Source: Atopobiaceae bacterium
GTDB taxonomy: Bacteria > Actinomycetota > Coriobacteriia > Coriobacteriales > Atopobiaceae
Direction of reading: 5' to 3'
DNA length: 64,000 nt
Assembly (NCBI GenBank): GCA_017510785.1
Contig: JAFWMH010000032.1
Coordinates: 9,763-73,762 of the forward strand
The position numbers and the translations under genes are program-made. Of the stretch, positions 36,904 to 60,769 are shown piece by piece. The notes beneath the pieces were generated by a model, which was not told the origin of the DNA, did not search any database, and saw nothing but the letters and a program-made list of their open reading frames with translations. Position 1 is the first letter of the stretch, and every line of letters starts with the position of its first letter.

Positions 36904-37204
36904 AGACTCTTCCGGCGAGACGATTGCGGAGACGCTCGTTTCGATACTCATCAGTGCGCTTGCTCTTACGCTGCTTGCCAGTGTGGTGGCAACCTCGGTA
37001 AACATCGTGACGAACAGCAGGGAGCATATGGACGAGTTCTACACAACCGAAGTTTCGATGGTGCGCAAGCCCGAATCCGAAGCTACGGATGCGCAGGTAA
37101 CGCTCGAGGTGCCGCTTGAGCCTGCCGATAAAATCGTAGACGTAAAGGTGTATTCGTCTGGCGAGAACAAGCCCATCGTGTACTACAAAACAAAGGAGGA
37201 ATAG
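36884..37204 (+). CDS. Small type IV pilin-like protein (106 aa) with a class III signal peptide
   Basis: Track ORF 36677..37204 trimmed to ATG 36884 (GGAGGTGGGA RBS). Reads MSRKILRDSSG|ETIAETLVSILISALALTLLA, with Gly at -1 and Glu at +5. Overlaps the previous gene by 20 nt. Confidence 0.75.
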   Translation: MSRKILRDSSGETIAETLVSILISALALTLLASVVATSVNIVTNSREHMDEFYTTEVSMVRKPESEATDAQVTLEVPLEPADKIVDVKVYSSGENKPIVYYKTKEE

Positions 37205-37206
37205 CC

Positions 37207-37806: not shown

Positions 37807-37822
37807 ATGCGAGGTGACGCAA

Positions 37823-43400: not shown

Positions 43401-46400
43401 GGCCGGCGAGAACGAAGGGAAAGAGGTTACCTTTGTTACCGAGTCGGATGGCTACGTCACCGTTCAGCTAACGGAAGAGCAAGACGGCCTGTACATTCAT
43501 AAGAACACTCCATATTATTTGGAGATGCTCAAGGCTCCGGTCACCGAAAATGGTGACGATACTTTCACGTATTACGAAAAGGACAACACGCTCTACGGAT
43601 TCCTTGTTACCGACGATCCCGACTATACGTACAAGGACGTATATAGCTACTTCAACGGCGACGTGCTAAAGGTTCGCTGCTATGAGGAGTCGGAAGGCAT
43701 TCACGTTACGAAGCGCTTCGCTGGTAACCAAACCATTTCCGACGAGCAGAAGAACGGGATTGTTTTTATCCTCGAGAAGGAGAACACGGCAACTGGCGGC
43801 TGGGACGAGGTTGAGCAGCACCCGTATAGTGAGTTTACGTGGGGCTCCATGGCCTTCAATACGGGCTCCAAAGGATGGAGCGCACACGACTATGGCGCAA
43901 CGTATCGTGTACGTGAGGAGAATGCCGAGGTAGAAGGCGTCGATCTTAACGATACCTGCTTTGTGAGTGTTGAGGGTAGGGGCAAGTCGACTACGGAAGA
44001 GAGCAACGAGTTCCTCGTCAATCCGGACGAAGAGGCATACAGCTTTAGCCTCGTGTTTACCAACGAGTACTTCAATCATCGGTTGGACATTACCGTTCTG
44101 GACGAGGAGCACGGCACCTTGCTTCCCGGAGCGGTTTTCGAGGTGCGCGCTGCTACAGGTGAGGAAGCGGCCCCGGTTGCGACGCTTACTACTAACGAAA
44201 GCGGAACGATTGAAATCACGCGGACTGCCGATTATCAGCCCGATACCCTGTATTATGCCGTGGAAACAACCGCGCCCGAAGGATACTTGCTTCCAGCTGA
44301 TGCCGAAAAGGCGTACTTCTACTTCTCCGAGAATAACACGAAGGTACCCGAGGGTCTTCCTGCGGGAGAATCGGCTCTCGACCTCACCAAGTCCTACAGC
44401 ACAATGATGGTGGCGAACAGTAAGCAAAAAATCCACTTCCCCGTAATCGTTGCATGGGGCCTCACCGGAATTGGCGAGTGGCCCGATTCGGTTTCCAATG
44501 TGGACGTGTCGCTCACGCAGTCCGTAAAGGATGGGGAAGAGACGCCTGTGGAAGGCAAAACGGTGCGGCTTACGTCCGCAAAGAACTTCGACAACAGCGT
44601 GTTCAGGGATTTGCCCGCTCGCGACGAAGATGGCAAGGACATTACGTATACCCTCGTGGAGACCATCCACGATGCAAACGGTAACGACATCACGAAGCAG
44701 TTTGCCGTGTCCCAAACGATAACGGGCACGGGTTGGCACTTGCTTCGCAACCAAGACGCGGTGAGCGTAACAATACAAAAGCAATGGTTCGCGCAGGATG
44801 GCTCCCCAGTTAGCGGTAATAACAAAGAAGCGGTGAAGTACGACCTGTACTGCACTACGGAGGAACTCGAGGGCCAAAGTGGCGCCATTGCGCGCGAGGA
44901 CTTGGAGAGTCACCTGAAGTCGGCCAAAAAGATTCGCGGCGAATTAACGCTCTCGAAGGAAAGCGAGTGGAAAGACACCGTATACTCGCTGCAAAAAACC
45001 GATGCTAGTGGCAATCCGTATTACTACTTCGCCTTGGAAGACGAAGGTTCCATGCCTCAGAACCATGAGGATACCTATACGATAGCTCCCGCAACGGAGA
45101 GCGCCAACAGAACCCTCACCATTCGGAACACGCAAACCGATATTACGGTTATTGTTAAGGCAAAGGATTGCGAAAAGACGTACGGAGGCGAAGACCCAGT
45201 CTTTGGTTTTGACGTGACCGTTCAGGACGCCCATACCACGGCCACGTGGGAAAAGGTCGCAGGCGAGGATAACAAATACAACGTCACAGTGACCGCGGAA
45301 GACAATAGCACGCATTCCTTCACCTTCACGCTAAATCGGGAAGAAGGGGAAAATGTTGGAACCTACACCCTGACGCCTGCCAAGGTGACGGACCTGCATG
45401 GTTACCGCGTGAGGTTTGATGAGGGAACCCTCACAATACACCGTGCTGAGGCTGTGGTGACTGCTGGTGCACAAAAGGTGTATGGCGACGAGGACCCCGC
45501 GCTCGTAACTATAACTGGATTGATGAATGGCGACGGCGAAACTGTAATTCGCCACGAGGAATACCGTGAGCCTGGCGAGGATGTGGGCGAGTATCCCATT
45601 ACCGTAAGCGGCGCAAGAAATCAAGGCAACTATAGGGTTACCTTCGTGCAGGGTTCTCTCTCAATAACTCCAGCTGCTGCGACTGTGAAGGCGAATAATT
45701 CGAGCAAGGAGTATGGCGAGGAGGAGCCCGAGCACACGGTTAAGATTACGGGACTGAAGGCTGGCGATGCTGAGGGCGTCATCGAGTACTCGCTCCTGCG
45801 CGAGCCAGGCAACAACGTAGGAACGTATGCCATCTCCGTGACGGGCGACGCAGCCCAAGGCAACTACAACGTTACATTCGTGAATGGCGAGTTCACCATT
45901 ACGCATGCGCCGGCTGTTGTGAAAGTTGAGAACGCGGAGAAAACATATGGCGTTGAGGATCCAGCGTGGGTTGTGACTATTGATGGATTGAAGGGCAATG
46001 ATCCAGAGAGCTTGATTGTCTACAACGTGAGCCGAGCAGCAGGCAATAACGTTGGTGATTATACTATTACCGCGACCGGAGAGGCGGAACAGGGCAACTA
46101 CTCGGTTACGTATGAAACCGGAACGCTGAGCATTCAGCCGGCGGAACTCACGGTGACGCCAGACGAAAAGTTCAGGTCCATAAACGACTCAGCGGATCCC
46201 GTGCTAACGGCCACCGTCACCGGTTGGCAGTATAACGACGACGAGGCTGTTCACAGCGTCGTGGAAGGCAAAGAAGTCTATACGCTCAACGGAACTACGA
46301 TTCTTACCTTTGCCTTGTCGCGCGAGGCTGGCAATGATCCTGGCGATTACGTGATTAGTGCAGCCGGTGAGTCGGCACAGGGCAATTACGTACTGAACTA

Positions 46401-49400
46401 CGAAACGGGTACGTTCACCATTCTCGCGGTTCACAACGTCGACGTTTTCCAGGAAACTTCCGACCTCGTGGACCCCAGCGCCAATCCTGCGTACAGCTAC
46501 GTGGCCCAGTTGGATTTGAGTGGTACGGGCCTGAGTAGCGCGGCGGGTTTTGACGAGAACAATCAGTGCGCTTTTGGACTGCCTGGCGAAGGTTCGAACC
46601 ACAATCAATTTAACATGCAGATTCCCTACGGTGCGAAGCTTACCGTTACGCAAACGAGCGCCAACAGCGACTACCTTACCACGTTGGCAGTGGACGGCGC
46701 CTCCTACGATGACGGTGGTTCAGCCAGCTGCGTTATTGATGAGGTAAACGACTACTATGCCATCACCTTTACGCACACGCGCATCAGCCTTCCCGTACAG
46801 GCTATGGCTGGTATCGATCAAACGGAAGAAGGTGCTGCGACGGTTGGGCATGTGTGCCATCTGGGCATTCCGGGAGGCGACGCACACGAGCAGCTCTTCA
46901 ATAACGATACGGAACCATACTTGCAGGAAACCCTTGGTTACACGTTGCCGACGGATAAATACTACGAATTCGATCACGCGAGCCTCTTTGCCGAGAATGG
47001 TACGAGCATTGCTACTGGCGTTACGGCGGTAACGTATGATCAGGCGAGCGGCAATTGGAAGTACAAGACCGATGGCGACTATGCGGACCTTCCCGATGGT
47101 GCCGTGGTTCGTATGTACTACTATCCCAAGTACATTTGCAAGGTTGGCGAGGAAAAGTTCTACACCCTGAATGCGGCTTTGGATTATGTGCAGGAGACTG
47201 CCGCAAGCCAAGGCGGCGAGGAGCCTGCGGAGGCCCAGTCGAAAACAGCTACAATCGAGATGCTGCTCGGTGAGTATCGTATGCCCGCAACCGATAGGCT
47301 CACCATTCCTGCCGGATACGATATTACGATTACGACGGCGACCGAGGGATACACGGGAGCCTCTACTCCTGCGGTCATTAAGAGGAGGAACGGCTTCTCC
47401 GGCAATTTGTTCGTCAACAACGGCAAGTTGACGTTTAAAACAATAACGTTGGATGGTAACGGCGAAAGCGTTACCGGCGCGGACGCATTGGTGTTGAACA
47501 ACGAACATTCCGAGCTGCTGGTAGACGGCGATGCAATCGTTCGGAACACGAACGGTGTTAATGGCAGCGCGCTCTACATGGCTGGTGGCACGGCAACGAT
47601 TAATGGTGCGTTGCAAGGTTACTATGCCACGCATGGCGGAGCCGTGTACGTAGCTGGCGGCATGCTGAACATCGCCGGCTCAGTTAGTACCACTAATGGT
47701 GCGGTAACCGCTACAAGTGGTGGCGCGGTCTTCATGACAGGTGGCACGGTGAATGTTCAGGCCGGTGCGACTATGAATGGCAATACAGCCGTGAACGGCG
47801 GCGTATTCTATGTTGAGGGCGGCACCGTTAACATCGGTGCCGGCACCCTGAACAACAATAAGGCAACCAATGCTGGTGGCATGCTCTACGCCACGGGTGG
47901 AGACGTTAATATAACTGGTGGCACCATCAAGACGAATCAGGCCGTGAATGGCGACGGAGGAGCCATCTTCTATAATGCTCCGGGTGCACTCAAGGTTTCG
48001 GGTGGCACGCTCCAAGGCAATAAGGCGACGAATGGTAACGGTGGCTTCATTTATCAGTCGTCTGGTGAAGCTACGCTTTCGAGTACGATTAACGAGACTA
48101 ACACTGCCAAGAACGGTGCGGCGATTTACGTGCACGCCGGCATTGCGAACTTCAATGGAGTGAACATTACTGGGAACAAAGCCACTGAAGGCGGTGCCGT
48201 GGGCGTAGACGAAACGGCGAGACTCTACTTCTATGGCAATGCGAAGGTTACAGGCAATACTAATAGCAGTCTCTCCACGAGCAAAAAGGACTGCAACGTT
48301 TACTTGGACGAAGACTCCGACGAGATCATCAATGTTCCTACGGCAGAAATGGGCGGCAGCGCTAACATTGGCGTATACGTGGCCGATAGCGTTCGTGCTA
48401 CGCGTGGTGAGGTGTGCTGCAGCTTCGGTGCATATGTGAGCACGAAAAATTTGGCCAAGTTTAAGGATGATCGCGGCTTCTACAATGTGTACAATGCGGG
48501 CAACAAGCTCTACTGGGGCAAACCGATAAAGTATACGGTTCTGTACAAACAATCGGGCCTGTTACCCACATCTTCGGGAACCACGCAGCTTCAAGCGGCA
48601 AAAGAGTACTACCCGCGGAAGACGGAAAATGCCATCTACGACCTTGTAACGACGCTTTATAACGAACAATACAAAGACAAGATTCAGTCGGGCTACGTGT
48701 ATGCGTATTCGTATGTGAAGAACGCGACCGCGTTCGAGAAGTACATCACGAACATCGATTGGGATGCAACGAGTCGGAAGTGGGTCTTCAAACAACATGA
48801 CGGCACGTCAACGAACGCAACAAATGAGTTTACGATTTACTATTCTGATGCGGCGTATATTTCGGTTGTGAACAACAGTGGTTACGATCTCACCATCAAT
48901 CCTCTCACAGTGATGGGGAAGGATGTTGTATCGGACGGATATGGTTACACCATTGCAGTCAATAACGTAACGAAGTCAACACTGGTACCGATTACCAGTG
49001 ACGAGCTGACGATTCCGCATGAGGGCTCGGTCAAGCTGTTGTTCCCGGGCGCCACGAGTTCGAGCTGGTCTACCGACGGCGTGTTTGCGGGGGCTACAGC
49101 AGCGAATGCCATTTCCTATACGCTGGATAGTGCCCATGGTGGACAGCCACAGCAACTAGCGACGACTGATGTCGAAGGGGGCGCAGGGTTCAACAACCTT
49201 TCCGGCACCCTGTTGAGCGATGCTGGCGTTGTTTACGAGATTCTCTTTGGCGACCCAACCCCCATTTGCAAGGTGGGCAACGTGCCCTTCACGAAGCTGA
49301 CTGATGCTATGTCGTACATCACGACCAATGGCATGACTACGGCGACGATTGAAATGCTGGTGGATTACCAACAGCCTGCGGACGATATCCTCGAAATACC

Positions 49401-52400
49401 TGAGGGCTATAACATTACTCTAACGACTGCCGAACGAAAGAGCGCCTCAAATCCGCTCGGGTATGTTGGCGAGGATTCCACACGGGCAGCTATCAGTCGT
49501 AGCTCGGGCGATATGGGTTCCGCAGTAAAGGCACTTATACGAGACGATAACACTACGGTTCTCACGACAGACGAACAATGCACAACGTCAATTACGCTAA
49601 GCAACATAATCTTCGATGGTAAGGCCCTTGGCCAAGGTGGGCAAGGTGGTGCCATTAGTACGGTAAACACGAAGGTCAGCGTCGATGGCTGCGAGTTTAA
49701 GGGTTATACTGCGGCTCGCGGTGGCGCGGTATATACGAGATGGGGTCAGCTGGAGGTGAAGAATTCAAACTTCACAAAATGTCTTACGCTTTCTACCGCT
49801 GATAAAACAGGTGGTGGTGGCATTTGGACTACTGCGCATTCTCTATTGGTGGAGAACTGCGTGTTCAATGAGTGCTCTTGCCCCAACGTATCGAATGGTA
49901 GGGCGCAGGCGGGTGCCGTATTCCACAATATTCGAAATGACGGGGCGGTGGTCTATCCCAACGATCCTCAAAAGTTCCCAAAGGGTTTCTCGAAGGGATC
50001 GCAGACCGATATTATTGATTGCAAGTTCTATGACTGCTATGCTGCGAATGGCTCCGGCGGAACGGTGGAGTCTGACGCTTGGGTAATCAATATTGAGGGT
50101 TGCGAGTTCTATCGAAGCGAAACCCGTAAGGCTGGTGGCAACGGTGGAGCAGTCAATATTTATTCGAACGATAACACGAGCATTTCCAAAGATAGTATCC
50201 TGACTGTCGAGGACTGTTATTTCGAAGACTGCTCGGCGCCGAACGGAAATACAAATGGTGGCTGTGTACGTACAAATACATATGCTGCAGTTGTGAGGAA
50301 TAGCGTCTTTAGAAACGCGCGCTCCAACAATACGGGTGGCGCTTTATCGATGACGTATGGGACTGCTGGTAGACTGGAAATTGATGGATGCGCGTTTGAA
50401 AACTGCAGCTCGGGTACCAAGTGTGGCGCTGTTTATGCGCAGGCGCTCGTCCTCACAATTAAAGATTCGTTCTTTACGAACTGCACCTCACCATCGTATG
50501 GTGCGGTTTATCAGGATAAAGATTCTACAGTTGCATCGGTTACTGTGAGCAATAGCAGTTTCGAAAACTGCTCCGCTACGAACAGCGGTGGCGGCGCACT
50601 CTATGCTACGGCCAGAAACCTAAGCATTAGTGGTATGTTTGGCGGGAAAAGCTATACTACGAGCAGCGGAGAGTACGGGTATGCCTGTGGAGACGAATCG
50701 TTCACGTTCGACAATTGCACTGCAACTCGTGAGGGCGGCGCAGTGTACCATACGACTGCTGGTACCGAAACACTTTCTGATGTTGTGTTCACGAGTTGCT
50801 TGTCGGGAGTGAGTGGTGGCGGTGCATATCTCGGCAATTCGAAGCTTGCCGCTTCGAATGCAGTATTCAACAACTGCAAGGCAGCGAACAGCGGTGGAGG
50901 TCTCTACATCTCGCCAAGTACGAATGGAGCTACCTTTAGTGATGACTGCTCGTTCTCAGGCAACTGGGTTACCGCTTCGGATGGCAAGGGCGGATCGCTC
51001 TACATTAATCAGGGCACCGTTACGATTAACGGGGGTTCCTTTGCGGACTCGAAGGCAGCTTACGGTGGCGGTATTTATCAAAAAGGAACGCTCACGCTAA
51101 ATGATACGAGTATTGCAGGATGCTACGCAGCAATGGCGGGTGGCGGTCTCTACCACGAAGGCACAACCACAGCTTCTGGTTCCATTGCCGACTGCTATGC
51201 CGCACGCGGTGGCGGCGTGTATTCATCGGGAGCGCTTACGATGGGCAGCGCCCCCGGCGCCATGAGCATTAGCGGTTGCTACGCGAAGGGCGTCACCATT
51301 AGCGAGGATGGAACGGCAACAGTTGCCGCATCGTTCACGCCCGATAACTTGGGCGGTGGCGTGTACAACAATGCAGGCAACGTGTCTAGTGCTGCGACAA
51401 TCGAAAACTGCAACGCCTATGATGGCGGAGGTATCTACCAAGCCAATGCCACCTTTACCACGTCTGGTGGCAGCATCGAAGGTAATGATGCTACCCACTT
51501 TGGCGGCGGCGTGTATTACGCAGGCGGCACGTTTAAGATGTCGAGTGGCGTGAGTGACGTTTTGGTTACAGGCAACACTGCCAACAAGGGCGCCGGCGTG
51601 TTCGTGGCCGATGGCAAGACGATGGATGCTAACGTCTGGGGCGGCTATCATTGTGAGATTTCTGGCAACCATGCCCGTAGCGAGGGGGGAGGCATCGCCG
51701 TAGGCGGCCCGAACGCAATACTGAAGTTTAAAGACTACATTATTGTGAAAGATAACACGCAGGTTGACGAAGACACCGCGTGCAATATCTACTTGGATCA
51801 GAACAGCAATACGGTGATTCAAACGAGCGGCACGCTTGATACAAAGTCATACATCGGCGTTTATGCTTCAAATGCTCAAGAAGCGGCACACGGAGTTCCT
51901 GCCATGCCCTTTGGCACTAGGGCAAACGATAACAACCTCAATCGCTTCTTTAACGACCGCATACCGTATCTCTATGGCTATAAGGGTGCAAACAAACTAA
52001 TAGTGTGGTCGGATTTTGTCTGCAGAATTACTGATGGCGAGGGGAACTTGCTCTACAAGGACGCGGAGTGCACTATGCCTGCGGTGTATCCGGTGCTTGA
52101 GAACGATGGCACAGAAAGCGCATTCGGTGCTTTGGCGGCTGCAAACTACAAGCTGTACAACCACGAGCGGGAGTACGGCAAGCAAAGTGGTGATGCGTAT
52201 CAGGTCCAGATGTTGGTGCAGGATTATGCCGCAACAAAACCAATGAAGCTTGAAACTGGCAAAACGGTGACACTGACTACCGCTACCGAGAAGGATGAGT
52301 GTGGATTCCAGTACAACGGCGATCCCAAGCATCCGTATGCAACAATAACAAGGGCGGCAAATGACTTCAGCATGATATCGAACACGGGCGGGAACTTGAC

Positions 52401-55400
52401 CCTTGCCAAAGTCGTTGTTGACGGTGGTTCCGAAGCCGGGCGTTCGACCAATACCAATGGCGGTTTGATCATGATTACGTCGGGCGGCACGGTAACCCTC
52501 GACGATGGGTCAACGCTACGAAATTCGCTCCGCTCCGGCAATACTGGCTCAGGAGCAATTCGCATGGAGTCAGGTACAAATAACATGCTCGTCATGAAGG
52601 ACGGAGCGCTCATTACGAATTGCAGTGGCTCCGAATACGGTGGAGCGATAAGCGTGAAGCAGGGAACATTTAGCATGGAGGGTGGCAGCATCACCAACTG
52701 CTCCTCCAAAAGCGGTGGTGCGGCACGCATAGATACGAATATGTATATGTCGGGTGGCGTCATCAGTGGAAATAACGCCACAGTTGACGGTGGTGGCATC
52801 TCAATTGGTGGCACAGGGTCACGGCTGTACTTCTCGGGCAATGCGGTTGTTCAGGACAACACGTTGAATGGCAGTACGACCTGTAATGTCCAGCTGTCGC
52901 AATATACCCATGGGGTTATCAATACCTATGGTGACGGCTTGGGTGCCGAGGCCAAGATTGGCGTATACACAGCGGGTACCGAGAGCAACACCAGTTCGCT
53001 GTACTACAAGCACGGAATGGCGACCAAACCCTTCGGTACGTGGGCGAGTGACGCCAACTTGTACTGCTTCGTTAACGACCGCAACGGTTTGACCGGCGGA
53101 AAGAAGGACCTGACGAGCGCCACGGATAAAACAATCTACTGGGTGGGCAAGCCGGTGCTCGCCATTATGAAGGTGGTCGAAAGCGATTGGTCCGCAGACA
53201 AGAACACGGCGTTCAGCTTCACCGTTACGCTCGATATGGAGATGCCTGCGGGTGGCATGGCCGCGTATGGCTTCGTCGCGGGCGAGGACGGCAAACCGAC
53301 ACGCACCTTCACCCAAAAGGATGGGGAAGACGCGTACCAAATCGACCTGCCGGAGAAGCTGCGTGGCACGCCCTATACCGTGACGGAGAACCTTACGAGC
53401 GACCAAGAGAGTGACTTCAACACTCAGATCCACAAAGTGGCAAGCGATCTTGAGGAGTCCATTGGCGGCCGTAGCATTGCGGGTATCCTCGGCGAGCACG
53501 GTACCACCACCTCCGACCTGACGTTTACCAACACTCGCGTGACGGGCGAGCTCAGCGTTTCCAAGACGATGCAGAGCAAGGACGAGGCAGACTTTAATAA
53601 GGCCTTCGACTTTACGGTGACCTTGGACGATGCAACCATCACCAAGGTGTATCCTACCGTCGTGACGCGCGTGAATGAGGGTGGCGAGAAAACCGAGACG
53701 GACGAAGAGATTTCGTTCGTGGAAGGTGTCGCCAACCTCCAGCTCAAGCACGACGAGAGCGTGACGATTAAGGATCTTCCCACAGATGTGCCGTACACAG
53801 TTTCCGAGGTGGTTCCCGAGACGGATCAGGATGCGTACCGCACGCGTGTGAGCAAGGACGGCGCGACTTCTCATGCGGGGACGTCGCAAGCGGGCACCGT
53901 TGGCGAGGTCGTTAAGGAAGGTGTTTACACGTCCAGCGTTGACTTCATCAACAATCGCTTGGAAATTGTCTGCAAGATTACCAACGCGAACAGAGAGCTC
54001 TTGTACTACAAGGACAACGGGGAACTGACGCCGGCCATTTACTTCCGGTTGGAGGATGCGTTTGTGCAAATCAACAACGGTGGGTTGCGAACCAGCAGCG
54101 ATGGCTCCGCCTCGGGCGCGTTGCACATCGAGATGGTCGTGACTGATTACACCATGGAAGAGCCGGCCATCTTGAACAAGGGCAAAACCGTAACGCTTAC
54201 GACGGCCCGCACGACTGACGAACGGTATCCCTATAACTATGGTAAGGATGACGAGAACGGCAACACCTCCGTCGTCTTGCGTGGATACAACGGCGACAGC
54301 ATGATTGTTGATAGCGGAACCCTTACCGTGGATAACATCACGCTGGATGGCAATGCCGAGAACAACTACGTTTCCACGGGAAGTGGTGGCATCATCAAGA
54401 CGAACGGCAACGTGCGTCTTACGGTGAGTGCGGCTGCAACCCTACGCGATTCCACGGTGAGCGAGGAGAACGGCGGAGCCATCTGGATGGACGAGAACGC
54501 GCAGCTCACGATGAACGGAACGATTGACAACTGCAAGGCTTACGCAGGCGGCGGAATCTATGCGACCCCGAACTTTAGGTCCGTTACTGTGGGTGGCACC
54601 ATATCCAACTCCGAGGCAACTACCGGAAACGGCGGCGCGGTTTGCGCAGGAACGGGCGGCACTGTAACGATTAACAACAATGCAATGCTTGAGGCGAACA
54701 AGGCCCATACGTATGGCGGTGCGATTTACGCCGAGAGTGCAGTTACCGTAAAGGGCACAATTAGGAACAACACTGCTCACGATGGTGGTGGCGTGTACGT
54801 TGGCGAGGGGGCCGCGTTTACCATGTCCGCCGGATCGGTTGCTGGCAACGAGGCCCTTGGCGGCAATGGCGGAGGCATTTGGGTGGACGGAACCACACGC
54901 ATCACTGGTGGCAGCTTTGCGGAAAACAAGGCGCTCGATGTACTTGATTCCGGTAATGGCAAGGGTGGTGCGATTTACACGACCACTAGCGCAGTCGTTT
55001 CCATCTCTGGCGCGAACACGACGTTCGCGGGTAACCAGGCCAAGCAGGGTGGTGCGATTTACGACCAGTGCCTTGTAACCATGGCGGGAGGCAGCATGAC
55101 GGCCAACACCGCGACCGAAACGGGTGGCGCGGTTTACGTGGATGCCGAGCACCTGTTTACGATGTCGGGTGGAAACATAAGCGGCAACAGTTCTCCTGAG
55201 GGTGCCATTTCCACGGGCGAGCACGTCGTGCTCACATTCTCGGGCAATTCAGTGGTGAGTGGCAATACCTCGAGCGATGACGCGACCGTGCCCATGAATG
55301 TGTACCTGGGGTACGACACTAACGCCATCATTACAACCTCTGGCCTCGGGAGGAACGCCAACATTGGCGTGTACGCTGCTGACGGGGAAAACGAGGACAT

Positions 55401-57972
55401 TTACTACGAGCACGGCATTGCGGCAAGGAACTTTGGCACCTACACGGGCACCGGACCCGGTTCCGCGAACCTGAACAAGTTCGTGAACGATAGGGACACC
55501 ACGCTGAGGGGCATGGCGGGCGCCAAGCAAGGGACGGAAGAAGATGGCTCGTACCTCGTGATGTGGCCCGGCAAGGATGTGTACCTGCAGATTTCCCAGT
55601 TCGACGTCCAGATGGGCGAGGACGGGAAGCCCATCATGACAGACGACGACAAGTACATTCCGGTGACGAGTCCCTTGGCGGTGAAGGACGCTCAGTTCAT
55701 CCTTACCAACACAAACGGGAACGAAGATGCTGCCGACGACGTAGTGGTGTGGACTGGTGCGAGTGATGCGGCCGGCCACATTACCATCCCTTGGACTACT
55801 GAGGAGTCGGAGAACGCAATGGGCGCCTCGTTTGCCCCGGGTAGCACCTACGAGCTTAAGCAACAGGTAGCGGGCAAAACGTACGTATTCTCTGCAGGCG
55901 CGTGGATTCAAACGTGCGTGTTGCCGGCAGGCTCTTGGACGCTTGCGGTTGCACGGAACAATGCCATTGCGTGGCAAACAGTTTCGCCCGAGAGCGAACA
56001 GGTCAATCGTACTCTCGACGTTCAGGCGCCAAGTGATGAGGCTGGACTCGGAGATACCTTCACCGTCTTCAACGATCGCATGCCGAGAATTACCTTCGAC
56101 GCCAATGGTGGCAAGCTCTATGGCAACCGGAAGTCGGGCGAGGAAGAGACCAAGACGGAAGTGGTCGAGTTCGAGAATACCGACGTCTCTGCCGACTACA
56201 GCATCGAGGAGAAGAACCCCACTTGGAACACGCTGTTCCTCAACTGGAACACCGAGCAGGAACCGGATGACGAACATAGTGGCACCGAGTACAACAAGGA
56301 CGATAAGATTACCTTCTATCGTCGGACCGACTACGACGACTTGACGCTTTATGCTCAGTGGATTCCGGTGGTGTGCAAGATTACCAACCGCGAAAACGAG
56401 CTGCTATACGTTGACGGCAGTCCAGCGATTTACAGCACGTTGCAGGATGGCTTCGAGGACTTCAACACCAAGAAGTTCACCCTGGCGAATGGCAAGTCGG
56501 CCACCCCGCGAAAGATCAAGATGCTAGTGAGCAGCTACAACCTCACCGTGCCCCTCACGCTGGAGCGCGGCAAGACGGCAATTCTCACAACGGCCTCGAA
56601 GGACGACAAGGACGGATATCCGTATCGTCCGACGAACGACGAAATGGTGTGCACCATCAAGCGTGCGTTCGAGTATCCCGAAGACGGCACGAAGAGCATG
56701 ATTACGAACAAGTTCAACCTCACGTTTACCGATATCACACTTGACGGAGCAAAGGATACGTACAAGCAGGAGCTTGAAGACGGCACGATTAGGAATACCG
56801 TGCGTGTCGATGGCGGCATCGTAAACGTGACCGGCGACTATGCGCAGCTTACGGTTACCACTGGCGCCACGCTGCGCAACTCCGCCGTGGGCGACGACGA
56901 GGAGCCGCACAACGGTGGTGCGATTTACGCACACGAGAATACGACGGTGACCATTGCCGGTGGCGCAGTTGTGGGCAACGAAGCGAATGGCTACAACGAG
57001 ACGACCGAAGCGATTGCCAAGGGCGGAGCGTTGTTCGCGAGCACCGAAAGCGAAGTCTACATAACGGGTGGAGTAATCAATGGGAACTCCGCGGTGTTGG
57101 GTGCGGGCGTGTATCTCCCCGTGGATAGTACCTTGCATCTCTCGGGCAAGCCGAGCTTTGGTGGTACCGACCTCAAGGGCGGCGACGGCGAAGACAAGGA
57201 CGACCTCAAGGGCGAGGAAGGCAACTTCGTCGCAGGTCCGGAGCTGGAGGACGCGAAGAATGGCGGCAAGGACTACGTGAGGCCGCGGCAAGACATCTAC
57301 CTCGAAGGCACAGGCGACCCGCTTGGATCCATCGCAATCTCGGGCGGACTCAACATCGATCCGGGCTCCATATGGGTTTGGGCCGAGGATGCGGACGAAG
57401 AGAACGACATCAATCATTACCAAACGCTCAGGCAGTTCGCGGTGTTCGAGACCGAGGCCACGCGCACCCGTATGTCGAGCGAGTTGCTTAACAAGACGCT
57501 GCTTGCATTCCGGAACGCGCGTCCCGACGATGTATCCGCCAACGAGACGAGCACGTTCTTGTCTGGAGACTTGGACATCCAAGACGGGGATCATCCAACC
57601 TACGTGTATTGGACGGGCGTTAAGGGTAGCCGCAAAGTCATCCTTCGCAAGTTCGACAAGAACACCGGCGAGTCCTTGGCGGGTGGTAAGTTCAAGATTC
57701 ATCGCGGAAGTGCCGACGGCTCCGTCTTTACGGGGACGGACATTGCCGGCAACGACAGCGCCGAGGAATTCGAGAGCGGCGAGAGCGGTGTGTTCTACGT
57801 TGGAACTCTTAGCTACGGAACGTACTACGTGGAGGAAACGCAGGCACCGAGCGGTTATGGCAAACCCGCGGACGGGGAGCGTTTCGTCGTTACCGTGAGT
57901 GAGGATGGTGTGGGATACCAGTACGAGGAGGCGGGAGAGACGCTCTACAATCGCGAGGTAGAGGCCAAGTAG
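40438..57972 (+). CDS. Giant (5,844 aa) N-terminally lipidated surface protein / putative adhesin: MBG repeats, Cna-B/SpaA-like domains, a Listeria-Bacteroides repeat, five capped parallel beta-helix (PMP/PbH1-like) modules
   Basis: One uninterrupted 17,535-nt ORF with a GGGAGGG RBS. The signal peptide has a lipobox (ALVPTLYG-C38). GGA(I/V/L)Y and FxNC repeats are typical of right-handed beta-helices. (K/E)xYG(E/D)EDP...GxY...GxL(T/S)I units match the MBG pattern. GAEFRL.../GAVFEVR.../GGKFKIH...YYVEETQAPSGY match the SpaA/Cna-B pattern. There is no C-terminal LPXTG or TM segment. Confidence 0.9.
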   Translation: MRDNKHASPRLGKPALLSIAIALSIATVVALVPTLYGCKQAGSATPTLTAGKRPTQRSTVGVGAFAQGKGSPSLRVIPAASLDGGVGVDEGPLTVSDANPYASSGYDSGSSPNVSYGTVLDSEVSAPAQEDSTWTQTLSQTIEPAEGVFYTVSVTYGDDAGISPDATLVVEELESNDERRNALHALLNVREDECVFQDVFLKIALKVGEEEVQPNASVRVAVETNRIAPRQSDAVEASVIGGSGEGRLTVINRTGAVDGVNSDGGGETADPSATALRFQASGLGEVGFAVVATPKHQTDINGEVVTVLGPRTKGIECVENEINEQISDDQTIVRALAVVSEPAHAWPTTVWMKVDDARPDEERNGHLTVSAYESGEIREELFGLGSTNNPFSTDTSRELALVWHGNPDADASEDAGWESGDQAPSEGAESTHEEEKAHEEKVRAEEKSHEADEHAKDASKEVKKETKGSAKTEEKAADKTEAEAIVVAEGGQQLRATDGSTYHVTVTYGDSAGIPQGAELRVREITKNDMDYVEYLAQSARELGVEATDTSFAKVLDISFVDPVTGNEFEPTGDVHVRIELAGESLVSSEEAGVVHFGDKVEALSCDVSDEQVEFTVDGFSTFVVMGYGTSNPEASESADGDTDPEYTVPTPVEGLVYTGEAQELVTAGTVTVGTMKYSLQEDGEYDTAVPTGTNAGTYTVYYMVEGDETHNDVAVNSVETTIAPAPVTLTAVSTYRNYTGEEQVFSGFTASVEGLTFEGVVASGSGTEKGAYDVTFTGVVPNETTDSTGNYIVTQTTNGTLTIQTLLTKRLASFNGNLATYELVVNPEGYQLNGGQSFTLNDRLMDKKNDSSVVTNNQSINYSSVGIEPADAGVVFDYSGYTGTFVIPDATAVTITYTTRVEGNAGENVWFGNVSRLMAAGGDSLGELANVSAVETETITPTGTDISGTGGVYSIELYTYADGHMETGLAGAEFRLLDANQRPITYKAGENEGKEVTFVTESDGYVTVQLTEEQDGLYIHKNTPYYLEMLKAPVTENGDDTFTYYEKDNTLYGFLVTDDPDYTYKDVYSYFNGDVLKVRCYEESEGIHVTKRFAGNQTISDEQKNGIVFILEKENTATGGWDEVEQHPYSEFTWGSMAFNTGSKGWSAHDYGATYRVREENAEVEGVDLNDTCFVSVEGRGKSTTEESNEFLVNPDEEAYSFSLVFTNEYFNHRLDITVLDEEHGTLLPGAVFEVRAATGEEAAPVATLTTNESGTIEITRTADYQPDTLYYAVETTAPEGYLLPADAEKAYFYFSENNTKVPEGLPAGESALDLTKSYSTMMVANSKQKIHFPVIVAWGLTGIGEWPDSVSNVDVSLTQSVKDGEETPVEGKTVRLTSAKNFDNSVFRDLPARDEDGKDITYTLVETIHDANGNDITKQFAVSQTITGTGWHLLRNQDAVSVTIQKQWFAQDGSPVSGNNKEAVKYDLYCTTEELEGQSGAIAREDLESHLKSAKKIRGELTLSKESEWKDTVYSLQKTDASGNPYYYFALEDEGSMPQNHEDTYTIAPATESANRTLTIRNTQTDITVIVKAKDCEKTYGGEDPVFGFDVTVQDAHTTATWEKVAGEDNKYNVTVTAEDNSTHSFTFTLNREEGENVGTYTLTPAKVTDLHGYRVRFDEGTLTIHRAEAVVTAGAQKVYGDEDPALVTITGLMNGDGETVIRHEEYREPGEDVGEYPITVSGARNQGNYRVTFVQGSLSITPAAATVKANNSSKEYGEEEPEHTVKITGLKAGDAEGVIEYSLLREPGNNVGTYAISVTGDAAQGNYNVTFVNGEFTITHAPAVVKVENAEKTYGVEDPAWVVTIDGLKGNDPESLIVYNVSRAAGNNVGDYTITATGEAEQGNYSVTYETGTLSIQPAELTVTPDEKFRSINDSADPVLTATVTGWQYNDDEAVHSVVEGKEVYTLNGTTILTFALSREAGNDPGDYVISAAGESAQGNYVLNYETGTFTILAVHNVDVFQETSDLVDPSANPAYSYVAQLDLSGTGLSSAAGFDENNQCAFGLPGEGSNHNQFNMQIPYGAKLTVTQTSANSDYLTTLAVDGASYDDGGSASCVIDEVNDYYAITFTHTRISLPVQAMAGIDQTEEGAATVGHVCHLGIPGGDAHEQLFNNDTEPYLQETLGYTLPTDKYYEFDHASLFAENGTSIATGVTAVTYDQASGNWKYKTDGDYADLPDGAVVRMYYYPKYICKVGEEKFYTLNAALDYVQETAASQGGEEPAEAQSKTATIEMLLGEYRMPATDRLTIPAGYDITITTATEGYTGASTPAVIKRRNGFSGNLFVNNGKLTFKTITLDGNGESVTGADALVLNNEHSELLVDGDAIVRNTNGVNGSALYMAGGTATINGALQGYYATHGGAVYVAGGMLNIAGSVSTTNGAVTATSGGAVFMTGGTVNVQAGATMNGNTAVNGGVFYVEGGTVNIGAGTLNNNKATNAGGMLYATGGDVNITGGTIKTNQAVNGDGGAIFYNAPGALKVSGGTLQGNKATNGNGGFIYQSSGEATLSSTINETNTAKNGAAIYVHAGIANFNGVNITGNKATEGGAVGVDETARLYFYGNAKVTGNTNSSLSTSKKDCNVYLDEDSDEIINVPTAEMGGSANIGVYVADSVRATRGEVCCSFGAYVSTKNLAKFKDDRGFYNVYNAGNKLYWGKPIKYTVLYKQSGLLPTSSGTTQLQAAKEYYPRKTENAIYDLVTTLYNEQYKDKIQSGYVYAYSYVKNATAFEKYITNIDWDATSRKWVFKQHDGTSTNATNEFTIYYSDAAYISVVNNSGYDLTINPLTVMGKDVVSDGYGYTIAVNNVTKSTLVPITSDELTIPHEGSVKLLFPGATSSSWSTDGVFAGATAANAISYTLDSAHGGQPQQLATTDVEGGAGFNNLSGTLLSDAGVVYEILFGDPTPICKVGNVPFTKLTDAMSYITTNGMTTATIEMLVDYQQPADDILEIPEGYNITLTTAERKSASNPLGYVGEDSTRAAISRSSGDMGSAVKALIRDDNTTVLTTDEQCTTSITLSNIIFDGKALGQGGQGGAISTVNTKVSVDGCEFKGYTAARGGAVYTRWGQLEVKNSNFTKCLTLSTADKTGGGGIWTTAHSLLVENCVFNECSCPNVSNGRAQAGAVFHNIRNDGAVVYPNDPQKFPKGFSKGSQTDIIDCKFYDCYAANGSGGTVESDAWVINIEGCEFYRSETRKAGGNGGAVNIYSNDNTSISKDSILTVEDCYFEDCSAPNGNTNGGCVRTNTYAAVVRNSVFRNARSNNTGGALSMTYGTAGRLEIDGCAFENCSSGTKCGAVYAQALVLTIKDSFFTNCTSPSYGAVYQDKDSTVASVTVSNSSFENCSATNSGGGALYATARNLSISGMFGGKSYTTSSGEYGYACGDESFTFDNCTATREGGAVYHTTAGTETLSDVVFTSCLSGVSGGGAYLGNSKLAASNAVFNNCKAANSGGGLYISPSTNGATFSDDCSFSGNWVTASDGKGGSLYINQGTVTINGGSFADSKAAYGGGIYQKGTLTLNDTSIAGCYAAMAGGGLYHEGTTTASGSIADCYAARGGGVYSSGALTMGSAPGAMSISGCYAKGVTISEDGTATVAASFTPDNLGGGVYNNAGNVSSAATIENCNAYDGGGIYQANATFTTSGGSIEGNDATHFGGGVYYAGGTFKMSSGVSDVLVTGNTANKGAGVFVADGKTMDANVWGGYHCEISGNHARSEGGGIAVGGPNAILKFKDYIIVKDNTQVDEDTACNIYLDQNSNTVIQTSGTLDTKSYIGVYASNAQEAAHGVPAMPFGTRANDNNLNRFFNDRIPYLYGYKGANKLIVWSDFVCRITDGEGNLLYKDAECTMPAVYPVLENDGTESAFGALAAANYKLYNHEREYGKQSGDAYQVQMLVQDYAATKPMKLETGKTVTLTTATEKDECGFQYNGDPKHPYATITRAANDFSMISNTGGNLTLAKVVVDGGSEAGRSTNTNGGLIMITSGGTVTLDDGSTLRNSLRSGNTGSGAIRMESGTNNMLVMKDGALITNCSGSEYGGAISVKQGTFSMEGGSITNCSSKSGGAARIDTNMYMSGGVISGNNATVDGGGISIGGTGSRLYFSGNAVVQDNTLNGSTTCNVQLSQYTHGVINTYGDGLGAEAKIGVYTAGTESNTSSLYYKHGMATKPFGTWASDANLYCFVNDRNGLTGGKKDLTSATDKTIYWVGKPVLAIMKVVESDWSADKNTAFSFTVTLDMEMPAGGMAAYGFVAGEDGKPTRTFTQKDGEDAYQIDLPEKLRGTPYTVTENLTSDQESDFNTQIHKVASDLEESIGGRSIAGILGEHGTTTSDLTFTNTRVTGELSVSKTMQSKDEADFNKAFDFTVTLDDATITKVYPTVVTRVNEGGEKTETDEEISFVEGVANLQLKHDESVTIKDLPTDVPYTVSEVVPETDQDAYRTRVSKDGATSHAGTSQAGTVGEVVKEGVYTSSVDFINNRLEIVCKITNANRELLYYKDNGELTPAIYFRLEDAFVQINNGGLRTSSDGSASGALHIEMVVTDYTMEEPAILNKGKTVTLTTARTTDERYPYNYGKDDENGNTSVVLRGYNGDSMIVDSGTLTVDNITLDGNAENNYVSTGSGGIIKTNGNVRLTVSAAATLRDSTVSEENGGAIWMDENAQLTMNGTIDNCKAYAGGGIYATPNFRSVTVGGTISNSEATTGNGGAVCAGTGGTVTINNNAMLEANKAHTYGGAIYAESAVTVKGTIRNNTAHDGGGVYVGEGAAFTMSAGSVAGNEALGGNGGGIWVDGTTRITGGSFAENKALDVLDSGNGKGGAIYTTTSAVVSISGANTTFAGNQAKQGGAIYDQCLVTMAGGSMTANTATETGGAVYVDAEHLFTMSGGNISGNSSPEGAISTGEHVVLTFSGNSVVSGNTSSDDATVPMNVYLGYDTNAIITTSGLGRNANIGVYAADGENEDIYYEHGIAARNFGTYTGTGPGSANLNKFVNDRDTTLRGMAGAKQGTEEDGSYLVMWPGKDVYLQISQFDVQMGEDGKPIMTDDDKYIPVTSPLAVKDAQFILTNTNGNEDAADDVVVWTGASDAAGHITIPWTTEESENAMGASFAPGSTYELKQQVAGKTYVFSAGAWIQTCVLPAGSWTLAVARNNAIAWQTVSPESEQVNRTLDVQAPSDEAGLGDTFTVFNDRMPRITFDANGGKLYGNRKSGEEETKTEVVEFENTDVSADYSIEEKNPTWNTLFLNWNTEQEPDDEHSGTEYNKDDKITFYRRTDYDDLTLYAQWIPVVCKITNRENELLYVDGSPAIYSTLQDGFEDFNTKKFTLANGKSATPRKIKMLVSSYNLTVPLTLERGKTAILTTASKDDKDGYPYRPTNDEMVCTIKRAFEYPEDGTKSMITNKFNLTFTDITLDGAKDTYKQELEDGTIRNTVRVDGGIVNVTGDYAQLTVTTGATLRNSAVGDDEEPHNGGAIYAHENTTVTIAGGAVVGNEANGYNETTEAIAKGGALFASTESEVYITGGVINGNSAVLGAGVYLPVDSTLHLSGKPSFGGTDLKGGDGEDKDDLKGEEGNFVAGPELEDAKNGGKDYVRPRQDIYLEGTGDPLGSIAISGGLNIDPGSIWVWAEDADEENDINHYQTLRQFAVFETEATRTRMSSELLNKTLLAFRNARPDDVSANETSTFLSGDLDIQDGDHPTYVYWTGVKGSRKVILRKFDKNTGESLAGGKFKIHRGSADGSVFTGTDIAGNDSAEEFESGESGVFYVGTLSYGTYYVEETQAPSGYGKPADGERFVVTVSEDGVGYQYEEAGETLYNREVEAK
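45141..46430 (+). other. Array of five MBG-like repeats inside the giant gene
   Basis: Units start CEKTYGGEDPVF, AQKVYGDEDPAL, SSKEYGEEEPEH, AEKTYGVEDPAW and EKFRSINDSADPVL. Each ends GNY.VT(F/Y)..G.(L/F)(S/T)I. Confidence 0.7.
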
Positions 57973-60738: not shown

Positions 60739-60769
60739 GGTCTTCTCCTTCGGGGCTGGGGTTTTGAGT

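What the first reader, a model, noticed from the sequence alone, without database searches (positions are those of the whole stretch)
47131..57625. Five-fold iteration of a capped beta-helix super-module with conserved N- and C-cap signatures
Five units start at about 47131, 49261, 52015, 53965 and 56368. Each opens with x(I/V)C(K/R)(V/I) (YICKVG, PICKVG, FVCRIT, IVCKIT, VVCKIT). Each then has (I/V)(E/Q/K)M(L/V)V..Y......(L/I)..G(K/Y).(V/I)T(L/I)TTA and a later I(T/V/F)(L/V/F)DG. A run of GGA(I/V/L)(Y/F) beta-helix rungs follows. Each closes with CN(V/I)YL...(I)GVY...FG...NL.(K/R)F.NDR...(L/I/V)(Y/V)W.GK, at about 48520, 52010, 53150, 55585 and 57625. The fifth unit is the most diverged. Unit lengths range from ~380 to ~920 aa and DNA identity between units is low, so the duplications are old and selectively maintained. 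A conserved Cys at the start, plus another in the C-cap of units 1-3, could form a clasp. I do not recognise this cap architecture as a named family.
Basis: seen in the sequence. Interest (0 to 1): 0.7.

Follow-up and report, generated by a model that had tools for sequence, protein, structure and literature searches.

The report
Giant pilus-linked beta-helix surface protein
The region encodes the back two-thirds of a 5,844-residue secreted protein of a gut actinobacterium, built from five separately capped beta-helix modules; the same giant protein family sits beside, and is sometimes fused to, a set of four type IV minor-pilin genes, so it is probably an adhesin carried by a pilus.

Summary
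Window 40438-57972 (+) is one 5,844-aa ORF. Its C-terminal 3,600 aa hold five right-handed beta-helix modules (468, 916, 381, 540 and 419 aa). The modules find each other by BLASTP (E 1e-10 to 1e-32, about 30% identity) but share no DNA similarity.

Each module has a positional ortholog (38-55% identity) in giant proteins of Oscillospiraceae, Atopobiaceae and Ruminococcaceae MAGs, so the iteration is ancient. No Pfam, NCBIfam or PDB entry covers the caps. More than 100 representatives of 50%-identity clusters carry complete modules, usually 3-5 per protein.

The proposed Cys clasp is not supported. The N-cap Cys is 95% conserved, the C-cap Cys only 36%.

The main new result concerns context. 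Four pilin-like genes lie immediately upstream (36082-40381). The same four genes, in the same order, flank homologous giants in about a dozen other loci, often next to PilB/PilT/PilC/PilD/PilM genes. In two protein clusters the large pilin is fused to the giant.

Best reading: a pilus-presented adhesin, functionally like PilC/PilY1 or a modular pilin but not a member of either family. This is a new variant of a known kind.

The parts
36082..36903 (+). Minor-pilin-like gene 1 (273 aa as called; ORF from 36034). It has a charged leader ending in Gly, then a hydrophobic helix with no Glu5 (RG|ASMSMALMLFLVV). This resembles the GspK/PilK/ComGG tip-most type.
   Evidence: Sequence. Gene call. Homologs occupy the same position next to giant genes in L001, L003, L008, L009, L012, L013, L018 and L082-L087. 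No Pfam hit.
36884..37204 (+). Minor-pilin-like gene 2 (106 aa). Class III-like signal SG|ETIAETLVSILI, with Glu at +5.
   Evidence: Sequence. Gene call. Counterparts with 'SGE(S/T)(I/L)xETLVALL' lie in L001, L003 and L013.
37207..37806 (+). Minor-pilin-like gene 3 (199 aa). Canonical prepilin signal GG|FSLTEMLV.
   Evidence: Pfam N_methyl E 3.1e-4, 20.6 bits against a cutoff of 21.2, so borderline. Motif read. Homologs at 31-54% identity in L001, L003, L008, L013, L018, L082-L087 and L089.
37823..40381 (+). Large modular minor pilin (852 aa). Prepilin signal GG|FTMVEM followed by a bulky C-terminal module with a GLUG motif.
   Evidence: Pfam N_methyl 25.3 bits (cutoff 21.2) and Glug 30.5 bits. 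695 homologs at E<=1e-5 among the 8,000 candidates scored. The only names that sources give them are 'prepilin-type N-terminal cleavage/methylation domain-containing protein'. The full-length homolog is fused to a giant beta-helix protein in P0120 and P0027.
40438..57972 (+). Giant surface protein, 5,844 aa. N-terminal Sec or lipoprotein-like signal (…VPTLYGC). Stalk of SpaA, Cna_B and five MBG_2 domains. Five capped beta-helix modules separated by Ig-like spacers. C-terminal SpaA-type domain. No LPXTG.
   Evidence: The identical protein is on two independent assemblies. No LPXTG or C-terminal anchor.
47134..48537 (+). Beta-helix module U1 (aa 2233-2700). N-cap 47128-47469, C-cap 48208-48531.
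   Evidence: Positional ortholog in L001 at 55% identity over 481 aa.
49264..52011 (+). Beta-helix module U2 (aa 2943-3858, the longest). N-cap 49258-49629, C-cap 51709-52011. The central rungs are of the Cys-rich 'xFxxCxA' type.
   Evidence: Ortholog in L001 at 52% identity over 969 aa. It abuts U3 directly, as in L001, L002 and L010.
52018..53160 (+). Beta-helix module U3 (aa 3861-4241, the most compact). N-cap 52012-52437, C-cap 52813-53160.
   Evidence: AF2 model with a 20-sequence ortholog alignment: pLDDT 92.6, pTM 0.92, all-beta solenoid. Foldseek finds only generic right-handed beta-helices, with TM <= 0.38.
53545..53898 (+). Ig-like spacer between U3 and U4 (DUF7601, best of two matched stretches).
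   Evidence: Pfam DUF7601 E 5e-21, two stretches.
53968..55587 (+). Beta-helix module U4 (aa 4511-5050). N-cap 53962-54363, C-cap 55216-55584. It lacks the C-cap Cys (MNVYL).
   Evidence: Chlam_PMP 29.2 bits (cutoff 20.6) and TIGR01376 POMP_repeat 33.7 bits.
56371..57627 (+). Beta-helix module U5 (aa 5312-5730). N-cap 56365-56760. Diverged C-cap 57121-57618 with a large insertion.
   Evidence: Ortholog in L010 at 39% and L001 at 38% identity.
57634..57912 (+). C-terminal SpaA-type (prealbumin-like) domain, followed by a short tail and the stop codon.
   Evidence: Pfam SpaA E 2.2e-15. A SpaA-like GxYxxxE motif occurs in the last 110 aa of 76 of 103 long (>3,000 aa) family members.
58212..59867 (+). 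551-aa polytopic membrane protein directly downstream. Whether it belongs to the system is uncertain.
   Evidence: No Pfam hit. No homolog found next to the giant genes of other loci.

Best explanation
SHOWN. The finding lies inside one gene for a 5,844-aa exported, multi-domain surface protein of an Atopobiaceae gut bacterium. Its distal part is five autonomous right-handed parallel beta-helix modules with PMP-like GGAx(Y/F) rungs.
- Each module starts with its own N-terminal cap subdomain: (V/I)-C-K-I-T-D … LLY … PA … xMLV..Y … TLTTA … R … LDG.
- Each module ends with its own C-terminal cap: LxFSGN … NVxL … IGVY … HG..PFG … FxNDR … G … YW.
- The modules are separated by Ig-like stalk domains.
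- The five modules are ancient paralogs conserved position-for-position in homologous giants of other gut monoderms.

INFERRED, caps. The caps seal the two open ends of each solenoid. Five similar helices on one chain can then fold independently after Sec export without pairing with one another. The roughly 30% inter-unit identity fits the same logic.

INFERRED, system. The protein works with a type IV pilus.
- The four adjacent pilin-like genes have the make-up of a tip or initiation complex: one without Glu5, two small canonical pilins, and one large modular GLUG pilin.
- They would present the giant protein on the filament, as minor pilins present PilC/PilY1.
- In some lineages the giant is fused directly to the large pilin, making an extreme modular pilin.
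- The beta-helix modules would then be the long, rigid, ligand-binding reach of a retractable adhesive pilus.
- Which end of the giant docks on the pilins is not known.

The confidence of 0.6 is for the whole statement. The anatomy alone would rate about 0.9 and the pilus link about 0.55-0.6.
For: Anatomy and statistics.

Fold: AF2 pLDDT 92.6 and pTM 0.92, an all-beta solenoid. All top Foldseek hits are right-handed beta-helices. PMP repeat models hit U4.

Antiquity: orthologous units score 160-800 bits against 60-130 bits for paralogous units. 128 of 159 retrieved proteins carry caps, mostly 3-5 per protein, giving 255 paired modules of 300-1,251 aa. Cap invariants are C 95%, K 94%, TTA 87-97%, R 95%, DG 94-97%, N 95% and W 100%.

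Pilus link:
- The same four pilin-like genes, in the same order, lie next to the giant gene.
- They lie upstream in the window, L084, L089, L083 and L082, which has a 6.5-kb insertion.
- They lie downstream in L001, L003, L008, L012, L013 and L018 and L085. L009 shows a homolog of the first pilin gene at the locus end.
- PilB, PilT, PilC, PilD or PilM genes are contiguous in L084, L085, L086 and L089. PilB- and PilT-like ORFs, judged by eye, follow the pilins in L013.
- All six sampled loci of 852-aa pilin homologs (five taken from the pilin search, one the P0120 fusion) have a giant gene beside them.
- Rosetta-stone fusions: P0120 (4,232 aa, on 5 contigs from different samples) and P0027 (7,092 aa) carry a full-length homolog of the 852-aa pilin (32-38% identity over about 775 aa) in front of cap-bearing modules.

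Framework from the literature: modular pilins, and PilC/PilY1 presented by four minor pilins (PMC8179133). Tip complexes with large adhesins and beta-strand complementation (PMC12918778).
Against: - No experiment supports any of this. The link to the pilus rests on gene neighbourhood and fusions only.
- The window itself has no pilus motor, platform or peptidase genes.
- At least one family member (P0034, L088) has no pilin genes within 8 kb. For L002, L004, L005 and L007 only the downstream side could be inspected, and it is negative.
- The window protein has a Sec or lipoprotein-like N-terminus (…LYGC), not a prepilin signal. This could mean membrane anchoring independent of a pilus.
- It has no PilY1 beta-propeller domain.
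- A ligand is unknown.
- The role of the caps is inferred from general beta-helix knowledge, not tested.
Confidence: 0.6

Rival explanations
1. Stand-alone cell-surface fibril or adhesin. The giant is anchored by its own N-terminal lipid or signal-anchor and projects through the wall by itself, like other giant Gram-positive adhesins. The pilin genes are only co-located or co-regulated neighbours.
For: Sec or lipobox-like N-terminus LYGC, conserved in the L083 ortholog. SpaA, Cna_B, DUF7601 and MBG stalk domains typical of wall-associated adhesins. P0034 has no adjacent pilins. No pilus machinery in the window.
Against: Adjacency to the same four genes survives rearrangement (upstream or downstream) and spans Clostridia and Actinomycetota. 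Two independent in-frame fusions to the large pilin exist. There is no LPXTG, SLH or other wall-anchoring signal.
Confidence: 0.25
2. The beta-helix modules are carbohydrate-active enzymes (polysaccharide lyases or glycosidases). The protein is a giant multi-enzyme for plant or host glycan breakdown in the ruminant gut.
For: Best fold matches include PL6 alginate lyase, PL3 pectate lyase and GH28 polygalacturonases. The source is a ruminant-type metagenome, judged from the sample name and the ruminant hosts of related MAGs.
Against: All matches are weak (E >= 7e-3, TM <= 0.38) and reflect the shared fold. No lyase or hydrolase Pfam family hits. Conserved residues cluster in the caps and in Gly/Asn/Cys ladder positions, not in a groove. 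The rungs are of the PMP adhesin type.
Confidence: 0.08
3. Cargo of a secretion pseudopilus. The four minor pilins form the tip of a type II secretion-like piston that pushes the giant protein through the thick cell wall and releases it.
For: The four-gene set resembles GspH/I/J/K, including one subunit without Glu5. The giant has its own Sec signal, like type II substrates.
Against: Related loci encode a PilT-type second ATPase and a small major pilin, which are features of retractile pili. Fusion of the cargo to a pilin is hard to reconcile with release.
Confidence: 0.07
4. The repeats are a compositional or low-complexity artefact of a Gly/Ala/Thr-rich protein and not real modules.
For: The rungs are Gly-rich, and simple motifs such as GGAxY recur by themselves.
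Against: Cap regions of 110-140 aa align between units. They are found 2-8 times in unrelated proteins at E down to 1e-47. Complete modules occur in more than 100 representatives of 50%-identity clusters. A confident fold is predicted.
Confidence: 0.01

Closest known systems
PilC/PilY1 tip adhesins of type IVa pili
   Same: A large Sec-exported non-pilin protein encoded beside a set of four minor pilins. In the known systems those pilins form the tip or initiation complex that presents the adhesin (PMC8179133, PMC12918778). In related loci the genes are contiguous with PilB/T/C/D/M genes.
   Different: No PilY1 beta-propeller domain. Four to seven times larger (my recollection of PilY1 sizes of roughly 1,000-1,500 aa, not checked here). 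Found in monoderm gut Clostridia and Atopobiaceae rather than in diderms. The docking mode is unknown.
Modular type IV pilins (e.g. Streptococcus sanguinis PilB and PilC)
   Same: The 852-aa neighbour is a pilin module with a bulky grafted module. In P0120 and P0027 the whole giant is grafted onto that pilin.
   Different: The window's giant has no prepilin signal and is a separate gene. The 2021 InterPro survey singled out an 860-residue, 12-domain protein as its most extreme multi-domain modular pilin (PMC8179133). The fusions here are 4,232 and 7,092 aa.
Chlamydial polymorphic membrane proteins and PMP-repeat beta-helix passengers (PF02415, TIGR01376)
   Same: GGA(I/L/V)-type rungs in a right-handed beta-helix. 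The repeat models hit unit 4.
   Different: No autotransporter barrel. The host is a monoderm. There are several separately capped helices per chain. The caps are not described by the PMP models.
Pectate-lyase-like right-handed beta-helices (PL3, PL6, GH28, phage tailspikes, rhombotarget A)
   Same: The overall solenoid fold, which accounts for all the top Foldseek hits.
   Different: TM-scores are at most 0.38 and identity is 8-17%. No catalytic family signature. The cap subdomains have no match.
Sortase-anchored isopeptide adhesins and pilins of Gram-positive bacteria (SpaA, Cna_B, DUF7601 domains)
   Same: The stalk and spacer domains are of these types.
   Different: No LPXTG sorting signal and no sortase gene nearby. 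The functional modules are beta-helices.

Membership tests
Right-handed parallel beta-helix (pectate-lyase-like) fold | Three-stranded solenoid of stacked about 22-25-residue rungs | tested here: met
   The AF2 model of U3 (pLDDT 92.6) is a continuous run of short strands. All best PDB and BFVD matches are right-handed beta-helices, although weak (E >= 7e-3).
Chlamydia PMP repeat proteins (PF02415 / TIGR01376) | Repeated GGA(I/L/V) and FxxN motifs scoring above the curated cutoff | tested here: met
   U4: Chlam_PMP 29.2 bits (cutoff 20.6) and POMP_repeat 33.7 bits (cutoff 15). There are 13 exact GGA[IVLM][YFW] sites. Other units do not reach the cutoff.
Chlamydia PMP repeat proteins (PF02415 / TIGR01376) | C-terminal autotransporter beta-barrel | tested here: not met
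   No autotransporter domain in any segment. The protein ends in a SpaA domain.
PilC/PilY1 pilus tip adhesins | C-terminal PilC/PilY1 beta-propeller domain (IPR008707) | tested here: not met
   The Pfam scan of all six segments shows no such domain.
PilC/PilY1 pilus tip adhesins | Encoded with a set of four minor pilins in a type IV pilus locus | tested here: met
   Four pilin-like genes lie directly upstream. The same arrangement recurs with PilB/T/C/D/M genes in L084, L085, L086 and L089.
PilC/PilY1 pilus tip adhesins | Physical location at the pilus tip and a role in piliation or adhesion | not testable with these tools
   Needs pilus purification, microscopy or genetics.
Modular type IV pilins | N-terminal class III (prepilin) signal: leader ending in Gly, hydrophobic helix, Glu5 | tested here: not met
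   The giant's N-terminus is MRDNKHASPRLGKPALLSIAIALSIATVVALVPTLYGC, with no Glu5 and no N_methyl hit. The feature is met by the neighbouring 852-aa and 199-aa proteins and by the fused homologs P0120 and P0027.
LPXTG sortase-anchored isopeptide adhesins | C-terminal LPXTG motif, hydrophobic segment and charged tail | tested here: not met
   The protein ends …GETLYNREVEAK. Only 1 of 103 long (>3,000 aa) family members has an LPXTG-like string.
Polysaccharide lyase / GH28 enzymes | Sequence membership in a lyase or hydrolase family, with catalytic residues in the groove | tested here: not met
   No lyase or hydrolase Pfam or NCBIfam hit for the units or for 20 orthologs.

The most novel reading that the evidence does not exclude
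Gut monoderm bacteria (Clostridia and Atopobiaceae) load a 4,000-7,700-residue chain of multiple beta-helix modules onto a retractile type IV pilus through a dedicated four-pilin tip complex, or by direct fusion to a pilin. If so, this is by far the largest pilus-presented adhesin known. The capped beta-helix module with its near-invariant Cys-Lys N-cap would be its uncharacterised functional unit. The cassette also appears to have moved between phyla.
Probability: 0.45. Interest if true: 0.75.

Novelty: new variant of a known kind. Interest (0 to 1): 0.6.

Why it matters
Type IV pili of monoderm gut commensals are little studied, and how a thin filament gains binding specificity is an open question. 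Here a widespread, unannotated protein family has a clear architecture and a conserved genetic partner set. More than 100 clusters at 50% identity carry complete modules, mostly from ruminant and other gut metagenomes. That turns 'hypothetical giant proteins' into a testable hypothesis: a pilus-borne adhesin. It extends the modular-pilin and PilY1 concept several-fold in size. It also defines two cap domains that could be added to domain databases to improve annotation of thousands of proteins.

Tried and rejected
- Cys clasp between N-cap and C-cap: rejected. C-cap Cys is 36% conserved against 95% for the N-cap Cys, U4 and U5 lack it, and the caps are at opposite ends of the solenoid. A conserved Gln partner for a thioester was looked for among the conserved columns and none was found. 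A Lys-Asn isopeptide between the N-cap K and the C-cap N was considered.
- Autoproteolytic processing at the Cys: no conserved residue precedes it.
- Named-family search: Pfam, NCBIfam, PDB sequence, PDB profile, Foldseek PDB twice, and Foldseek BFVD. Nothing covers the caps. A weak DUF7055 hit in the U3 N-cap is below cutoff at 18 bits against 27.6.
- Plasmid collection: no match.
- The first genome scan with the seven-sequence alignment failed for lack of conserved columns. It was redone with a three-sequence alignment.
- The first AF2 model from a shallow alignment left the caps unmodelled. It was replaced by a 20-sequence ortholog alignment.
- The downstream 551-aa membrane protein as a conserved partner: no homolog beside other giants.
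- Shared ABC-transporter synteny with L088: only 25-30% identity, so not orthologous.
- A conserved C-terminal 'GVGY' docking strand: present in only 13 of 103 proteins.
- Literature searches found no description of these giants in pilus loci.
Full report
**What is there**

The finding's coordinates lie inside a single open reading frame, window 40438-57972 on the + strand, 5,844 aa. The identical protein is recorded on two independent assemblies: an ENA metagenome scaffold, XIEF21-1_SAMN15830022, and a Logan assembly.

The cysteinyl-tRNA synthetase in the window is about 80% identical to those of Atopobiaceae, Olsenella and Paratractidigestivibacter. The host is therefore a Coriobacteriia gut bacterium, a monoderm.

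The rest of the window is ordinary chromosome. It holds cysS, an rRNA methylase, yacP, a nucleoside-type ABC transporter, a P-type ATPase, an amylase and others.

**Checking the observation**

- The motif [IV]C[KR][IV] occurs five times in the protein, exactly at the five proposed unit starts.
- F.(N/D)DR closes units 1-4, and unit 5 has a diverged version.
- All 13 exact GGA[IVLM][YFW] rungs lie within the units.
- BLASTP of each unit against the protein recovers the other units at E 1e-10 to 1e-32 and 26-33% identity.
- A MAFFT alignment shows conserved blocks at both ends and length variation in the middle.
- Unit limits are U1 47134-48537, U2 49264-52011, U3 52018-53160, U4 53968-55587 and U5 56371-57627.
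- There is no DNA-level similarity between units and no tandem repeat.

**Architecture of the whole protein**

- The N-terminus is a charged leader followed by a hydrophobic segment ending in LYGC. This is a Sec or possibly lipoprotein-type signal, not a prepilin signal.
- Next comes about 2,200 aa of stalk with SpaA, Cna_B and five MBG_2 domains.
- The five beta-helix modules follow. They are separated by a conserved 240-aa spacer after U1, two DUF7601 domains after U3, and a further spacer before U5 that, read by eye, looks like a Listeria-Bacteroides repeat. Pfam gave no hit there in the window, although the precomputed Pfam lists Flg_new for two homologs. U2 and U3 abut directly.
- The protein ends in a SpaA-type domain with no LPXTG.

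**Fold**

With a 20-sequence alignment of U3 orthologs, AlphaFold2 gives pLDDT 92.6 and pTM 0.92. The model is a continuous solenoid of short strands.
- The N-terminal subdomain (residues 1-62) has the first strand CRITD, several beta-bridges and a short helix.
- The C-terminal cap has extra strands and a short helix.

Foldseek against the PDB and BFVD returns only right-handed parallel beta-helices: PL6 and PL3 lyases, GH28, rhombotarget A and tailspikes. E-values are at least 7e-3 and TM-scores at most 0.38.

PDB sequence and profile searches find nothing. Pfam and NCBIfam hit only the PMP/POMP repeat in U4. In orthologs they give sub-threshold NosD and Beta_helix hits. The helix is therefore a known kind with PMP-like rungs, while the caps are not covered by any curated model.

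**Distribution and age**

An exhaustive profile search gave 3,055 representatives at E <= 1e-30. Well over 100 representatives of 50%-identity clusters, each 2,000-7,700 aa, match the complete module from profile position 2 to about 370.
- Of the 159 retrieved proteins, 128 carry caps, usually three to five N-caps.
- The 255 N-cap to C-cap pairs span 300-1,251 aa, with a median of 452.
- Among GTDB species representatives, full-module matches come from Oscillospiraceae, Lachnospiraceae, Ruminococcaceae, Eubacterium, Acutalibacteraceae and Atopobiaceae MAGs, mostly from ruminants.
- Each window unit matches its positional counterpart in L001, L002 and L010 at 38-55% identity (160-800 bits). It matches paralogous units at about 30% (60-130 bits).

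The five-fold iteration therefore predates the divergence of these proteins.

**Cap conservation and the clasp idea**

Over the 255 modules, the N-cap has V/I-C(95%)-K(94%)-I-T-D, LLY, PA, MLV..Y, T-T-A (87-97%), R (95%) and D-G (94-97%). The C-cap has F-x-N(95%)-D-R, G (91%) and an invariant W. The C-cap Cys is present in only 36% of modules, and U4 and U5 lack it.

The two caps are at opposite ends of the solenoid. An intramodule Cys clasp is therefore not supported. The near-invariant Cys-Lys pair at the first strand remains unexplained.

**Context, the main new result**

Immediately upstream lie four co-directional pilin-like genes.
- 36082-36903: leader ending in Gly, hydrophobic helix, no Glu5.
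- 36884-37204: SG|ETIAE.
- 37207-37806: GG|FSLTE.
- 37823-40381: 852 aa, GG|FTMVE plus a bulky GLUG-containing module. N_methyl and Glug score above cutoff.

Homologs of these four genes, in the same order, lie directly downstream of homologous giant genes in L001, L003, L008, L012, L013, L018 and L085. A homolog of the first gene also sits at the end of L009. They lie directly upstream in L083, L084 and L089. In L082 they lie upstream, separated from the giant by a 6.5-kb insertion.

Five homologs of the 852-aa pilin on long contigs were looked up, and all had a giant gene beside them. A sixth locus, the P0120 fusion, carries the pilin homolog within the giant itself. In L083 the giant had been missed by the gene caller but is an open frame of at least 3,315 aa.

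In L084, L085, L086 and L089 the cluster is contiguous with genes for PilB (MshEN+T2SSE), a PilT-like second ATPase, PilC (T2SSF), prepilin peptidase or PilM.

In two protein clusters a full-length homolog of the 852-aa pilin is fused in frame to the N-terminus of a cap-bearing giant. These are P0120 (4,232 aa, seen on five contigs from different samples) and P0027 (7,092 aa).

One family member, P0034, has no pilins within 8 kb. The window itself has no pilus machinery genes.

**Interpretation**

Conserved adjacency that survives gene-order permutation and phylum boundaries, together with the natural fusions, is the classic signature of proteins that act together.

The four-gene set has the composition of a type IV filament tip or initiation complex. 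Such complexes present the non-pilin adhesin PilC/PilY1 in diderms. Bulky modules grafted on minor pilins are known as modular pilins (PMC8179133; PMC12918778).

I therefore propose that the giant is a pilus-presented adhesin, and that the five beta-helix modules are its rigid, ligand-binding reach. The caps most likely let each solenoid fold and stay independent on a chain that carries five similar helices. This last point is inference from established knowledge of beta-helix capping and of sequence divergence between neighbouring domains.

The protein is not a member of the PilY1 family, because it has no beta-propeller. The window's protein is not a modular pilin either, because it has no prepilin signal. 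It works like them rather than being one of them.

**Rivals**

- A stand-alone lipid-anchored adhesin, confidence 0.25.
- A multi-enzyme, 0.08.
- Cargo of a secretion pseudopilus, 0.07.
- An artefact, refuted.

**Novelty**

No paper describing these giants in pilus loci was found in four searches. The 2021 InterPro survey singled out an 860-residue, 12-domain protein as its most extreme multi-domain modular pilin. I rate this a new variant of a known kind: PMP-like beta-helix adhesin modules with undescribed caps, in a PilY1-like or modular-pilin-like relationship to a monoderm type IV pilus.

Noticed in passing
window 40438-57972 versus L001 and L002: By CysS the host is Atopobiaceae. Yet the giant's units are closer to those of an Oscillospiraceae MAG (L001, 38-55%) than, for four of the five units, to those of an Atopobiaceae MAG (L002, 39-47%). 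This suggests transfer of the cassette between phyla. No phylogeny was made.
   Followed up: partly
N-cap first strand of every module, e.g. window 47134-47145, 52018-52029: The Cys-Lys pair in (V/I)-C-K-I-T-D is 95% and 94% conserved over 255 modules from many taxa. That is much higher than expected for a merely buried residue in proteins of strict anaerobes. Its role (structural, covalent chemistry or ligand) is unexplained.
   Followed up: partly
window 40438-42400 (giant aa about 130-650); also L003-L005, L014, L020, L083-L089: The giant's N-terminal region holds two copies of a domain, 'Y.V(S/T)VTYGD.AGI…'. The same domain follows the signal peptide in many homologs ('TASDG.TY.VTV.YD') at 36-48% identity. 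It is a candidate docking domain. In the pilin fusions it comes right after the pilin.
   Followed up: no
L083 12332-22277: The public gene calls for this contig miss an open frame of at least 3,315 aa for the giant and list short minus-strand genes instead. Giants of this family may be under-annotated in metagenome gene catalogues.
   Followed up: yes
L082 12987-18946: Between the pilin set and the giant gene lies a 6.5-kb block of AAA-ATPase_like, PDDEXK_9, NYN and STAND-type NTPase genes. It looks like an inserted mobile or defence island.
   Followed up: no
window 3880-5712 (+) and 9036-10709 (-): Two paralogous DHH-DRTGG-CBS-DHHA2 proteins (CBS-domain family II pyrophosphatase type) lie on opposite strands within 7 kb.
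   Followed up: no
window 58212-59867 (+): A 551-aa polytopic membrane protein with no Pfam match lies directly after the giant gene. The P0120 locus has an unrelated 503-aa gene in the same position.
   Followed up: partly
window 59983-60795 (-) and 60770-61858 (-): An RlaP (RNA-repair-associated polymerase-beta-fold) gene and an Acyl_transf_3 gene lie downstream on the opposite strand.
   Followed up: no
window 40884-57702, minus strand: Many long minus-strand ORFs (up to 435 aa) overlap the giant gene. They were not tested. I take them to be by-products of G+C-rich coding sequence. The public gene calls list none in this interval.
   Followed up: partly
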